Source: a bacterium
GTDB lineage: Bacteria; Patescibacteriota; Minisyncoccia; Phycocordibacterales; UBA6065
NCBI GenBank assembly: GCA_030680695.1
Contig: JAUXUT010000149.1
Location: 302,933-354,999, forward strand
Direction of reading: 5' to 3'
DNA: 52,067 bases
Shown: in pieces, positions 30,685 to 32,600 of the stretch
How positions within the stretch are numbered: position 1 is the first letter of the stretch
How the letters are laid out: each line of letters opens with the position of its first letter
Position numbers and translations under genes: made by a program
Notes under the pieces: generated by a model
The model's input: the letters and a program-made list of their open reading frames with translations, nothing else
What the model was told of the DNA's origin: nothing
The model's database searches: none

Positions 30685-30712
30685 AAAAAAAGCGGCCACA
30701 TGTGTGGCCGCT
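30685..30712 (-). terminator. Intrinsic terminator
   Basis: GCGGCCAC/GTGGCCGC stem plus T7 on the - strand. Confidence 0.85.
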
Positions 30713-30732
30713 TCGTAAAGAGCGCGCAGTAA

Positions 30733-31137
30733 TCAGGTTTCCGTCGGAGTGACGGTGACCCGATACCGCCGAATGAAACGCTTGCAGGCGCAAGTATGGG
30801 GTCGCAATGACCCCGGCTTTTCGGGACGTTCTGCAGTATCGCCGATGTCATCTGACCGCAGCGTCCGTTGACGCGGTCGTTCGCCCACCCAGCCACGGTA
30901 TTCCCGGAAACTAACCCCGTCCTTGCCGGCCATTTGGCGGCAACGGATCAGGGTGCCGTGCGGGACTTCCCACAGATGCCGAACCACCGAACGACCACCG
31001 GAATCGATGCATGCCATCGAAGGGTGTTCAGTGATCGCGACGCCGTTCTCGTTCTTCTCGTTCACCAGGGCGTTGTGCAGTTTTTCGCCGCCGGTGTTTT
31101 CGATATAATGAACCATTTTCCTGACTTGGTCACTCAT
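30733..31137 (-). CDS. Hypothetical protein (134 aa)
   Basis: Strong SD (AGGAGG) 5 nt before the ATG; no family recognised; 3' third overlaps a structured RNA-like region. Confidence 0.65.
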   Translation of the reverse strand: MSDQVRKMVHYIENTGGEKLHNALVNEKNENGVAITEHPSMACIDSGGRSVVRHLWEVPHGTLIRCRQMAGKDGVSFREYRGWVGERPRQRTLRSDDIGDTAERPEKPGSLRPHTCACKRFIRRYRVTVTPTET

Positions 31138-31214
31138 GGTGATCCTCCTTTTTGTTGAGCTGAGATTCTCGTGTTCATGTTCACCCTACCTTCCGTCTTG
31201 GACTTTGTCCAGAC

Positions 31215-31436
31215 AAAAGAAAACCCGTCGTTTGCACGGCGGGTGTTCCGGAACCTAGCATAGGTGTTATAGTCGCGATCTCAGAAGATCGGGCGCGTCA
31301 ACTAAGCTTGCACCTGCTAAGTCTCCAGACATCATCTTCGGGTCATGATGGGAGGGGTGGTAACCCCGTTGATGTGAATGTGCTGGGTTTGGACCAGCTT
31401 CATCTACCAGTATAGCATACTGTACGGATTTGTCAA
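31215..31436 (-). promoter_or_regulatory. Structured leader or ncRNA (RNA3): promoter, short uORF, long hairpin, terminator
   Basis: TTGACA(31436-31)-16-TGcTATACT(31414-09); ATG at 31403; hairpin 31250-31326; GCAA-capped terminator 31224-31243 plus TTTTCTTTT. Confidence 0.6.
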
Positions 31437-31488
31437 TACCATAACAGGGTATCCAGACAAACCCGCCATTATACGGCCTAAATAAGCC

Positions 31489-32207: not shown

Positions 32208-32600
32208 CTAGGCAAGGACGGTCTTCATGAGATCGGCCGAACGTGGATCGCCCCAAGACGATGAATAATCTATTAGTTCTTTGGCCATGGTGCTCGGAAT
32301 CGGCAGTCCGTCGCGTAATTCGGCGAGCACTTCCATATCACCTTCACGGAAACTCGACATGAATGCCTGTCGTACTGTCTCGTCCATCATGTCTCGTTCG
32401 ATATCGAAAGCGATGCTTATCTCGCGGGCGTTGTAAATGTCGCCTTTTTTGAGAAATGAGATGATTGCTTGGCGAGCGACTTCGAGGATTTCGACTTCGG
32501 TGACCAGATCGATTTCGCCCATCTTTTTGCGCAACACTGCGGCGCGGGCAATGTCCCCTTTCAGAAGCGCCTTGGCGATAGCATCAATGGATTGAGTCAT
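32208..32600 (-). CDS. Hypothetical helical-repeat protein (130 aa)
   Basis: Three xxGD(I/M) units (LLKGDI, LKKGDI, FREGDM) about 35 aa apart. Confidence 0.7.
   Translation of the reverse strand: MTQSIDAIAKALLKGDIARAAVLRKKMGEIDLVTEVEILEVARQAIISFLKKGDIYNAREISIAFDIERDMMDETVRQAFMSSFREGDMEVLAELRDGLPIPSTMAKELIDYSSSWGDPRSADLMKTVLA

What the first reader, a model, noticed from the sequence alone, without database searches (positions are those of the whole stretch)
31215..31436. Attenuator-like leader: leaderless uORF, long hairpin, terminator, then an SD-led orphan gene
Seen: a consensus promoter whose start falls at an ATG opening a ~20-codon peptide (MKLVQTQHIHINGVTTPP...), short hairpins, a ~77-nt interrupted stem (31250-31326) and a GCAA-capped terminator ~80 nt before the ORF at 31137. 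Known: Pro-Pro motifs stall ribosomes in leader peptides. Inference: a ribosome-sensing attenuator or a stand-alone ~190-nt sRNA. With the downstream fold, this forms a compact RNA-rich module of unknown function.
Basis: partly seen in the sequence, partly recalled or inferred. Interest (0 to 1): 0.65.

Follow-up and report, generated by a model that had tools for sequence, protein, structure and literature searches.

The report
Orphan small RNA gene, not attenuator
The flagged stretch is most likely a self-contained gene for a small RNA of about 190 nt, with its own strong promoter and terminator, that was inserted between trmD and a small conserved gene in one groundwater Patescibacteria genome; it is not a regulatory leader of that gene, and its function is unknown.

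Summary
There is a near-consensus promoter (TTGACA-16-TGcTATACT), an ATG six bases after the -10, a 23-codon ORF, three short hairpins, an 82-nt interrupted hairpin and a GCAA-capped intrinsic terminator 76 nt before orf134.

The attenuator reading fails three tests:
- orf134 has its own promoter (T[GA]GACAAA-N15-GTAGnnT), conserved in 7 loci. In the window it lies downstream of the terminator.
- The nearest relatives keep trmD-orf-dnaX with only an 80-86 nt gap, so they have no leader.
- No antiterminator can form. Terminator pairing probability is about 1.0 even with a modelled ribosome on the ORF.

The ATG spacing (5 nt) occurs at chance frequency in this genome; real leaderless genes here use 6 nt.

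The unit is best read as a stand-alone, lineage-specific sRNA gene, flanked by an exact 10-nt direct repeat. It matches no Rfam family, phage or plasmid, and no homologue was found in the family genomes or fetched loci. It also fails a covariance model of a previously undescribed RNA family that I found directly upstream of leaderless dnaX in sister species. No expression data exist.

Side finding: the whole order appears to lack SRP GTPases (Ffh and FtsY).

The parts
31452..31461 (-). Left copy of the exact 10-nt direct repeat TTTGTCTGGA, the upstream boundary of the inserted unit
   Evidence: the repeat finder family D3; coordinates verified
31409..31436 (-). Sigma-70-type promoter: TTGACA, 16-nt spacer, TG-extended TATACT
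   Evidence: Promoter scan, 11 of 12 positions plus TG; one of 27 such promoters on the 649-kb contig
31332..31403 (-). 23-codon ORF (MKLVQTQHIHINGVTTPPIMTRR*) whose ATG lies 5 nt after the -10; translation is doubtful
   Evidence: Translation. Spacing 5 is at background frequency, whereas at spacing 6 22 of 24 ATGs open ORFs of at least 60 aa. No homologue was found to test conservation.
31330..31398 (-). Three short hairpins, H1 31398-31382, H2 31367-31354 (GGGGU/ACCCC followed by UCC, which forms a CCUCC anti-SD-like string) and H3 31350-31330, plus a 14-nt unpaired stretch ACAUUCACAUCAAC
   Evidence: MFE and centroid folds
31248..31329 (-). 82-nt interrupted hairpin H4, starting with the middle copy of TGTCTGGA
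   Evidence: MFE and centroid folds; 8-mer repeat
31213..31244 (-). Intrinsic terminator: 9-bp stem with one C-A mismatch, GCAA loop, U-tract UUUUCUUUUGU
   Evidence: Fold; stem pairing probabilities 0.88-1.0, and the hairpin is retained under every modelled ribosome occupancy
31208..31217 (-). Right copy of the direct repeat TTTGTCTGGA; it overlaps the end of the U-tract and the start of the orf134 -35
   Evidence: the repeat finder family D3
31183..31211 (-). orf134's own promoter: -35 TGGACA (31211-31206), 17-nt spacer, -10 TAGGGT (31188-31183). This is not part of the RNA; it shows that the ORF is a separate transcription unit.
   Evidence: T.GACAAA and GTAG..T are invariant at fixed spacing in 7 homologous loci, while the distance to the ATG varies from 48 to 81 nt
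30733..31137 (-). orf134: an SD-led gene for a small protein with a conserved N-terminal domain of about 90 aa (beta-alpha-beta-beta-alpha-beta), found immediately upstream of dnaX in every homologous locus long enough to show the downstream gene. Context only, not part of the RNA.
   Evidence: Homologues P0002-P0010; synteny; AlphaFold model with pLDDT 88-95 over residues 11-90; no Pfam hit and no significant PDB fold match

Best explanation
The stretch 31461-31208 (minus strand) is a self-contained transcription unit inserted between the trmD stop codon and the promoter of orf134. A near-consensus sigma-70 promoter with an extended -10 starts transcription at about A31403 or G31404. The transcript of about 190 nt folds into three short hairpins and one 82-nt interrupted hairpin, and ends at a canonical intrinsic terminator. 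orf134 is then transcribed separately from its own weaker, conserved promoter, whose -35 abuts the terminator's U-tract. Shown by sequence analysis: the promoter, the terminator, the unusually stable fold, the absence of the unit in the nearest relatives, the flanking direct repeat, and the lack of any antiterminator. Inferred: that the product works as a non-coding RNA, either base-pairing in trans or binding a protein, and that it is one more instance of the fast-evolving promoter-RNA-terminator units that recur next to the leaderless dnaX gene in these Patescibacteria. Any readthrough into orf134 would be constitutive, not regulated.
For: - Promoter matches 11 of 12 positions plus TG.
- The terminator forms with probability about 1.0.
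- Fold z = -3.8 and -3.4.
- No ORF of 40 aa or more starts within 150 nt of the promoter. It is one of only 2 of 27 full-consensus promoters on the contig with that property and a terminator within 250 nt.
- The nearest homologous loci, L037 (ORF 65% identical) and L038/L039 (59%), have trmD-orf gaps of 80-86 nt with no such unit. L040 has a pilin-like gene at the same junction.
- orf134's own promoter motif is conserved in 7 loci and lies downstream of the terminator.
- An exact 10-nt direct repeat flanks the unit, 244 nt apart.
- L041, L047 and L051 also carry promoter/non-coding/terminator units that abut the same ORF promoter.
- Most genus members carry an RNA gene directly upstream of dnaX.
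- Earlier scan notes describe the same kind of slot in other genomes.
Against: - There are no expression data: no RNA run holds the locus, and the DNA runs show only the same strain.
- No homologue was found by BLAST or nhmmer, by covariance model R1, in Rfam, in phages or plasmids, or in the scan's own index. Structure therefore cannot be supported by covariation and function cannot be inferred.
- The fold is equally good on the opposite strand.
- No antisense target stands out.
- The whole-genome model search is insensitive: it missed known members of the other family. The negative result in relatives is therefore weaker than it looks.
Confidence: 0.62

Rival explanations
1. Leaderless mRNA for a 23-residue micropeptide, or a dual-function RNA. 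Transcription starts at the A of the ATG, ribosomes initiate without a leader, and the structured remainder acts as a 3' UTR or has its own RNA function.
For: Leaderless initiation is routine in this genome. Of 24 ATGs lying 6 nt after an extended -10, 22 open ORFs of at least 60 aa, and dnaX is leaderless in every relative. The unit has TGcTATACT-N5-ATG and a 23-codon open frame. Earlier scan notes report tiny-ORF units in the same kind of slot in other genomes.
Against: Spacing 5 is at background frequency: 4 seen against about 2 expected, and only 1 of the 4 opens a long ORF. A 23-codon frame is expected by chance about one time in three (my estimate). The peptide is neither hydrophobic nor otherwise notable. 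The frame is buried in three hairpins. There are no homologues to test for coding constraint.
Confidence: 0.13
2. A diverged, displaced member of the RNA family that sits directly upstream of leaderless dnaX in sister species. In this genome it would have moved from orf-RNA-dnaX to RNA-orf-dnaX.
For: The size is similar, it has its own promoter and terminator, and it lies within 1 kb of dnaX. This genome has no recognisable member of that family on its main contig. L047 also carries its non-coding unit upstream of the ORF and shares an 18-mer with the downstream unit of L050. By eye, the order of elements is similar: a G-rich hairpin ending in CCCUCCC, a pyrimidine-rich linker, and GUUGA...CGCC. 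Family members are barely detectable to one another by sequence.
Against: Family model R2 with all filters off gives the target nothing beyond its terminator (-1.1 bits), whereas true members score 15.6-32.3 bits. The closest relatives have no RNA at either position. The flanking direct repeat points to a new insertion rather than a rearrangement.
Confidence: 0.1
3. A footprint of an insertion or duplication event, or a small mobile cassette, that happens to carry promoter-like and terminator-like signals. It may be transcribed but would have no selected function.
For: It is a singleton. It is flanked by a 10-nt direct repeat. TGTCTGGA occurs three times at spacings of 128 and 116 nt (p about 0.004). 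Pairing is mostly Watson-Crick and the fold is equally good on either strand. The same junction holds a different insert in L040.
Against: A promoter matching 11 of 12 positions plus TG, a correctly placed canonical terminator and a fold z of -3.8 occurring together in a genome with little non-coding DNA is hard to get by accident. There are no terminal inverted repeats at the boundaries, no other copy in the genome, and no phage or plasmid match.
Confidence: 0.1
4. One reading: a ribosome-sensing transcription attenuator. Stalling at Pro-Pro in the leader peptide would decide whether the terminator forms, and so control orf134.
For: The ORF ends exactly at the foot of the long hairpin, and a terminator follows 76 nt before orf134. 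The strong upstream promoter could add to orf134 expression by readthrough.
Against: There is no antiterminator. Forcing the terminator's 5' arm to pair upstream costs about 10 kcal/mol and gives only a 3-bp helix, and the terminator persists with nt 1-60, 1-74 or 1-87 occupied. A conserved ORF promoter lies between the terminator and the ORF. The leader is absent from all homologous loci. The ATG position is at chance level.
Confidence: 0.05

Closest known systems
Orphan promoter-RNA-terminator units beside leaderless dnaX in other Patescibacteria
   Same: It is a self-contained unit with a strong sigma-70 promoter, a well-folding ORF-poor transcript and an intrinsic terminator. It has no Rfam family, and it recurs by position but not by sequence. 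It sits close to a leaderless dnaX.
   Different: Here the unit lies one gene further away, upstream of orf134, which is itself tied to dnaX. Its upstream neighbour is trmD rather than dus. It carries flanking direct repeats.
SRP RNA gene (ffs/scr; Rfam RF00169, RF01854), which lies upstream of dnaX in Bacillus and many other bacteria (my own knowledge)
   Same: It is a small structured RNA gene with its own promoter and terminator in the dnaX neighbourhood.
   Different: Neither SRP model matches, even at permissive thresholds. There is no GNRA-capped domain IV motif. The genome has no Ffh or FtsY for such an RNA to bind.
Leader-peptide transcription attenuators (trpL, hisL and pheL type)
   Same: A short ORF is followed by hairpins and an intrinsic terminator upstream of a gene.
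   Different: There is no terminator/antiterminator alternative, no run of regulatory codons, a separate promoter for the downstream gene, and no co-conservation with that gene.
Dual-function sRNAs that encode a small peptide (SgrS/SgrT, RNAIII/hld, SR1/SR1P)
   Same: A structured sRNA of about 200 nt that contains a short ORF.
   Different: There is no evidence that the ORF is translated or conserved, and no identified base-pairing target.
6S RNA (Rfam RF00013)
   Same: It is about 190 nt long, highly structured and independently transcribed.
   Different: The 6S model does not match. The architecture is four separate hairpins, not a single rod with a large central bubble.
The dnaX-upstream RNA family of this genus
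   Same: Same neighbourhood, similar size, own promoter and terminator, and a C-rich CCCUCC string after a G-rich hairpin.
   Different: It fails the covariance model. Its promoter type differs (TTGACA/TATACT against TTGCAAA...GGGTGTAnnnT). It lies upstream of orf134, not adjacent to dnaX.

Membership tests
Ribosome-mediated transcription attenuator (leader-peptide type) | Mutually exclusive terminator and antiterminator structures | tested here: not met
   The terminator stem has pairing probability 0.88-1.0. The forced alternative costs about 10 kcal/mol and gives only a 3-bp helix. The terminator persists with nt 1-60, 1-74 or 1-87 held single-stranded.
Ribosome-mediated transcription attenuator (leader-peptide type) | The regulated gene is transcribed only from the leader's promoter, with no promoter between terminator and gene | tested here: not met
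   A T[GA]GACAAA-N15-GTAGnnT promoter motif, conserved in 7 loci, lies at 31211-31183, downstream of the terminator. This rests on sequence conservation only; no transcription start was mapped.
Ribosome-mediated transcription attenuator (leader-peptide type) | The leader is conserved together with the regulated gene | tested here: not met
   No similar leader was found at any locus fetched for the nine orf134 homologues. The nearest relatives have an 80-86 nt gap.
Ribosome-mediated transcription attenuator (leader-peptide type) | A translated leader peptide with regulatory or stalling codons | tested here: inconclusive
   A 23-codon ORF with one Pro-Pro exists, but its start spacing and length are at chance level. 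Translation cannot be tested with these tools.
Stand-alone bacterial sRNA gene | Own promoter and own intrinsic terminator bracketing a short transcript that has no long ORF | tested here: met
Stand-alone bacterial sRNA gene | A discrete transcript is detected | not testable with these tools
   No RNA run holds the locus.
Stand-alone bacterial sRNA gene | Structure supported by covariation in homologues | tested here: not met
   No homologue was found, so covariation cannot be assessed. The only support is thermodynamic (z = -3.8).
Bacterial SRP RNA (RF00169 / RF01854) | Match to the covariance model, including the Ffh-binding domain IV | tested here: not met
   No hit at E <= 10 in the region, and none in the genome.
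Bacterial SRP RNA (RF00169 / RF01854) | The partner protein Ffh is encoded in the genome | tested here: not met
   PF02978 and PF00448 are absent. The motif scan and tblastn are negative.
6S RNA (RF00013) | Match to the covariance model, or a rod with a central bubble | tested here: not met
   No hit. The fold is four separate hairpins.
dnaX-upstream RNA family of the genus (model R2) | Score comparable to true members (15.6-32.3 bits) against the family model | tested here: not met
   With filters off, the target matches only through its terminator, at -1.1 bits. The model was seeded from a single sequence, so its sensitivity is limited.
Leaderless small-protein gene of this lineage | ATG at the lineage's preferred distance after the extended -10 (6 nt dominant; also seen at 7-8) | tested here: not met
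   The spacing is 5 nt. That class holds 4 cases against about 2 expected by chance, and 1 of the 4 opens a long ORF. At spacing 6, 22 of 24 open long ORFs.

The most novel reading that the evidence does not exclude
The neighbourhood of the leaderless dnaX gene in this Patescibacteria order may be a dedicated exchange slot for self-contained RNA cassettes (strong promoter, structured RNA, terminator). The window's unit would then be a recent insertion caught with its junction duplications still intact: the 10-nt TTTGTCTGGA repeat at both ends and a third TGTCTGGA in the middle. That would point to an unrecognised site-specific mechanism that moves or builds small RNA genes.
Probability: 0.12. 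Interest if true: 0.7.

Novelty: new member of a known kind. Interest (0 to 1): 0.3.

Why it matters
On its own this is one more orphan small RNA gene of unknown function in an uncultured bacterium, so its impact is modest. It corrects a tempting misreading: a short ORF, hairpins and a terminator do not make an attenuator. It also shows how to tell the difference from sequence alone, using three checks: a conserved promoter downstream of the terminator, empty sites in relatives, and the absence of an antiterminator.

The context matters more than the unit. These very small genomes keep several strongly promoted, well-folding RNAs of unknown role around dnaX. At least one of them forms a real family with compensatory base changes. 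And the whole order seems to live without the SRP targeting GTPases, which are normally considered universal. Each of these points can be tested and would bear on how CPR bacteria organise gene expression and membrane-protein targeting.

Tried and rejected
- **SRP RNA.** The position upstream of dnaX suggested it. Rejected: the Rfam models find nothing and the genome lacks Ffh and FtsY.
- **6S RNA.** Rejected.
- **Any other Rfam family.** Only chance-level hits.
- **Homologue search.** The family BLAST gave only a 32-nt promoter match in G008. Nothing came from nhmmer or blastn against dnaX-upstream regions and the own genome, from the gaps of orf134-homologue loci, from covariance model R1 on 29 genomes, 36 loci and the whole main contig, from phages and plasmids, or from the scan index.
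- **G008 RNA.** A 385-nt RNA there has a near-identical promoter, but the RNA cores are unrelated (z = 1.65). RNA1 and RNA2 of this window are also unrelated to the target.
- **Protein-anchored retrieval.** Scans of metagenome contigs and genome contigs found nothing that tblastn confirmed.
- **Sequencing runs.** Only DNA runs of the same strain exist, and there are no RNA runs.
- **Antisense targets.** The best complement is a 13-mer inside a coding region (E = 2.8). In the duplex ranking of 1,397 gene starts, orf134 is 857th and trmD 923rd. That duplex measure is crude.
- **Whole-genome search with R2.** It recovered only the seed genome, so that route is insensitive.
- **Fold search of orf134.** No significant PDB match, and no Pfam hit.
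- **Literature.** No paper in the held library covers CPR sRNAs near dnaX or SRP loss in CPR.

Full report
**1. What is there**

The window comes from a 649-kb contig of a 1.24-Mb groundwater Patescibacteria (CPR) assembly. On the minus strand the gene order is rpsP, a KH-domain gene, a 130-aa ORF, trmD (32148-31489), the flagged region, orf134 (31137-30733), dnaX (30650-29589) and tRNA-Gln.

- -35 TTGACA at 31436-31431, a 16-nt spacer carrying TG, and -10 TATACT at 31414-31409.
- An ATG at 31403, opening a 23-codon frame (MKLVQTQHIHINGVTTPPIMTRR*) that ends at 31332.
- Hairpins H1-H3, then an 82-nt interrupted hairpin at 31329-31248.
- A 9-bp, GCAA-capped terminator at 31244-31223 with a U-tract ending near 31213, which is 76 nt before the SD-led orf134.

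The 194-nt transcript folds at -65.6 kcal/mol (z = -3.8, 0 of 200 shuffles as good). Without the terminator z = -3.4.

**2. Not a known RNA**

Rfam gives only tRNAs in the window at gathering thresholds and only noise at permissive thresholds. The position upstream of dnaX suggested SRP RNA. Neither SRP model nor the 6S model hits anywhere in the genome.

**3. orf134 is a real gene with its own promoter**

orf134 has nine homologues at 30-65% identity, with a conserved N-terminal domain of about 90 aa. The model of that domain is confident: beta-alpha-beta-beta-alpha-beta, block-mean pLDDT 88-95. There is no Pfam hit and no significant PDB match.

The homologue lies immediately upstream of dnaX in every fetched locus long enough to show the downstream gene. 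The upstream neighbour varies: trmD, trmD plus a pilin-like gene, or dus.

Seven loci share an invariant T.GACAAA and GTAG..T separated by a fixed spacing. This amounts to a -35-like TGGACA, 17 nt, and a TAnnnT -10. Its distance to the ATG varies from 48 to 81 nt, which is how a promoter behaves. In the window the motif occupies 31211-31183, downstream of the RNA's terminator.

**4. The unit is an insertion**

In the closest loci (L037, ORF 65% identical; L038/L039, 59%), the trmD stop codon is followed within 2-15 nt by the ORF promoter, and the whole gap is 80-86 nt. In L040 the same junction holds a 183-aa pilin-like gene.

The window's extra DNA is bracketed by an exact 10-nt direct repeat, TTTGTCTGGA, at 31461-31452 and 31217-31208, 244 nt apart. 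An imperfect 12-nt repeat lies next to each copy. TGTCTGGA occurs a third time at 31331, at the foot of the long hairpin. Only 19 of 5,000 dinucleotide shuffles give any 8-mer three or more times. I could not explain the middle copy.

**5. The attenuator reading fails on its own terms**

With ViennaRNA, the terminator stem has pairing probability 0.88-1.0. It persists when nt 1-60, 1-74 or 1-87 are held single-stranded to mimic a ribosome. Forcing its 5' arm to pair upstream costs about 10 kcal/mol and yields only a 3-bp helix. So there is no antiterminator.

Combined with the intervening promoter (section 3) and the absence of the leader in relatives (section 4), three defining features of an attenuator are not met.

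**6. The leaderless ORF**

Leaderless genes are common here. dnaX has TGnTATACT-N6/7-ATG with no SD in every relative. On the contig, 22 of 24 ATGs lying exactly 6 nt after an extended -10 open ORFs of at least 60 aa.

The flagged ATG, however, is 5 nt after the -10. With 131 such -10 motifs, about 2 ATGs are expected at any fixed spacing by chance. Spacing 5 has 4, and only one of them opens a long ORF. A 23-codon frame is not unusual either. Translation is possible but is not indicated by the sequence.

**7. Search for relatives of the RNA**

All of the following were negative:
- BLAST across 29 family genomes gave only a 32-nt promoter match in G008.
- nhmmer and blastn against all dnaX-upstream regions and the own genome.
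- The gaps of all orf134-homologue loci.
- A covariance model of the target, R1, searched in the family genomes, the fetched loci and the entire main contig.
- Phages and plasmids.
- The scan's own index.

Caveat: the whole-genome model search is insensitive, because it missed known members of another family.

No RNA-seq run holds the locus. The DNA runs show only the same strain. No antisense target stands out.

The fold is as good on the opposite strand, with few G-U pairs. The strand call therefore rests on the promoter and the terminator alone.

**8. Context: what relatives carry**

L041, L047 and L051 each have a different promoter/non-coding/terminator unit that abuts the same ORF promoter.

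Independently, most genus members carry an RNA gene of about 200-250 nt directly upstream of the leaderless dnaX promoter. Its elements, in order:
- its own promoter (TTGCAAA...GGGTGTAnnnT);
- a long G-rich hairpin whose 3' strand ends in CCCUCCC;
- a pyrimidine-rich linker;
- GUUGUUGAU...UUACGCC;
- a terminator.

Rfam has no match to this RNA. A model seeded from L014 (R2) recovers it in L010, L012, L013, L016, L017/L052/L053, L021 and L023 at E from 5e-8 to 6e-3. On the model-fitted alignment, 92% of cells pair against 45-56% in slid controls, and 41 of 53 pairs change on both sides.

The target RNA does not match R2 even with filters off (-1.1 bits, terminator only). The best hit in the interval is a weak 5.1 bits (E = 0.04) at 30689-30836, directly upstream of dnaX and overlapping the non-conserved tail of orf134. 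The main contig has no other member.

Earlier notes of this scan (AI-written, unchecked) describe the same kind of slot beside leaderless dnaX in other Patescibacteria. That agrees with what I found independently.

**9. Verdict**

The attenuator interpretation is not supported. The stand-alone sRNA alternative is the best reading (confidence about 0.6). The minor rivals are a leaderless micropeptide mRNA, a diverged displaced member of the dnaX-upstream family, and a functionless insertion footprint.

The unit itself is of modest interest. The more notable results are side findings: an undescribed RNA family with compensatory base changes upstream of dnaX, a conserved small protein tied to dnaX, and an apparent order-wide absence of SRP GTPases. 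For the last, 120 of 121 genomes from 118 genera have no match, and the single hit is a 41-residue P-loop fragment.

Noticed in passing
Whole genome G000; 29 family genomes; 121 genomes of the order: No SRP54-type GTPase domain (Ffh or FtsY) was found in any of the 29 family genomes or in 120 of 121 genomes from 118 genera of the order; the one hit is a 41-residue P-loop piece in a 941-aa ORF. Controls were positive 14 of 14. For the own genome, the M-domain HMM, motif scans, a tblastn with E. coli Ffh and the SRP RNA models were also negative. No paper on this was found in the held library. It needs a full-sensitivity check, because the genome search uses a loose pre-filter.
   Followed up: partly
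L014:1312-1475 (+), L010:2716-2539 (-), L016:1322-1464, L017:1613-1452 (-), L021:2740-2554 (-), L023:1229-1364, L012:2735-2579 (-), L013:1264-1458, L052:538-699, L053:620-782: An undescribed structured RNA family of about 200-250 nt lies directly upstream of the leaderless dnaX promoter in many species of the genus. It has its own promoter (TTGCAAA...GGGTGTAnnnT), a long G-rich hairpin (GGGAGGGCGG...CCGCCCUCCC, which pairs an SD-like strand with an anti-SD-like strand), the motifs GUUGUUGAU and UUACGCC, and a terminator. Rfam has no hit. Model R2 recovers it. On the model-fitted alignment, 92% of cells are paired and 41 of 53 pairs have compensatory changes.
   Followed up: partly
window 30689-30836 (-): The best match of family model R2 in the trmD-dnaX interval is weak (5.1 bits, E = 0.04 for 921 nt). 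It lies at the family's canonical place directly upstream of dnaX and overlaps the 3' tail of orf134, which is not conserved among orf134 homologues. It may be a decayed remnant of the family RNA that the ORF now reads through.
   Followed up: partly
window 30733-31137 (-) and homologues P0002-P0010: orf134 belongs to an unannotated small-protein family of 122-136 aa. Its conserved N-domain (YYIENLG...CLDR.G..I.RNL.EVP...F..Y...P.EY) has a beta-alpha-beta-beta-alpha-beta fold. It lies immediately upstream of dnaX in every fetched locus long enough to show the downstream gene. There is no Pfam hit and no significant PDB match.
   Followed up: partly
window 30650 (dnaX start) and contig-wide: dnaX is leaderless (TGnTATACT, 6-7 nt, ATG, no SD) in the window and in every relative checked. 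On the contig, 22 of 24 ATGs lying exactly 6 nt after an extended -10 open ORFs of at least 60 aa. These leaderless-gene promoters mostly lack a -35, whereas the RNA-type units have TTGACA.
   Followed up: yes
window 31459, 31331, 31215 (minus-strand starts): TGTCTGGA occurs three times at spacings of 128 and 116 nt: at both flanks of the unit and at the foot of the long hairpin. Only 19 of 5,000 shuffles give any 8-mer three or more times. This is unexplained; it could reflect serial junction duplications, a recombination core or a protein-binding site.
   Followed up: partly
L002 1530-1118 (-), genome G008: A non-coding, well-folding unit of about 385 nt (z = -3.65) lies between a D-Ala-D-Ala carboxypeptidase-like gene and ftsW/rodA. 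Its promoter is nearly identical to the target's (TTGACA...CAGTATGCTATACTGGTA) and its terminator tail is similar, but the RNA body is unrelated and Rfam has no hit.
   Followed up: partly
G000 contig C134, about 555011-554770 (-), outside the window: A second unit of the type full-consensus promoter, no ORF, terminator: about 245 nt with MFE -106.6 kcal/mol. It is one of only two such units among the 27 full-consensus promoters on the contig.
   Followed up: no
window about 11205-11030 and 10905-10735 (-): Two tandem ORF-free units downstream of an unannotated ORF, each with a TTGACA-type promoter and a strong terminator. They are unrelated in sequence to the target RNA and have no Rfam hit at gathering thresholds. 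Other findings of this scan already flag them.
   Followed up: no
L047 about 2800-2930, and L012 (minus strand) about 350-420 nt upstream of dnaX: Another shared non-coding motif, CCTRATTGCTACCGTTA...GAAATGRTAGTG, appears in two distant loci next to the dnaX region. An 18-mer, AA(T/G)GATAGTGTTGGT(G/T)AC, links the L047 upstream unit to the L050 downstream unit. It may be a further RNA family.
   Followed up: no
window 32208-32600 (-), and L040 1231-1623: The rpsP-KH-trmD operon has no recognisable rimM. In its place is a 130-aa ORF with no Pfam hit, which is also present as a 130-aa gene at the same place in L040.
   Followed up: no
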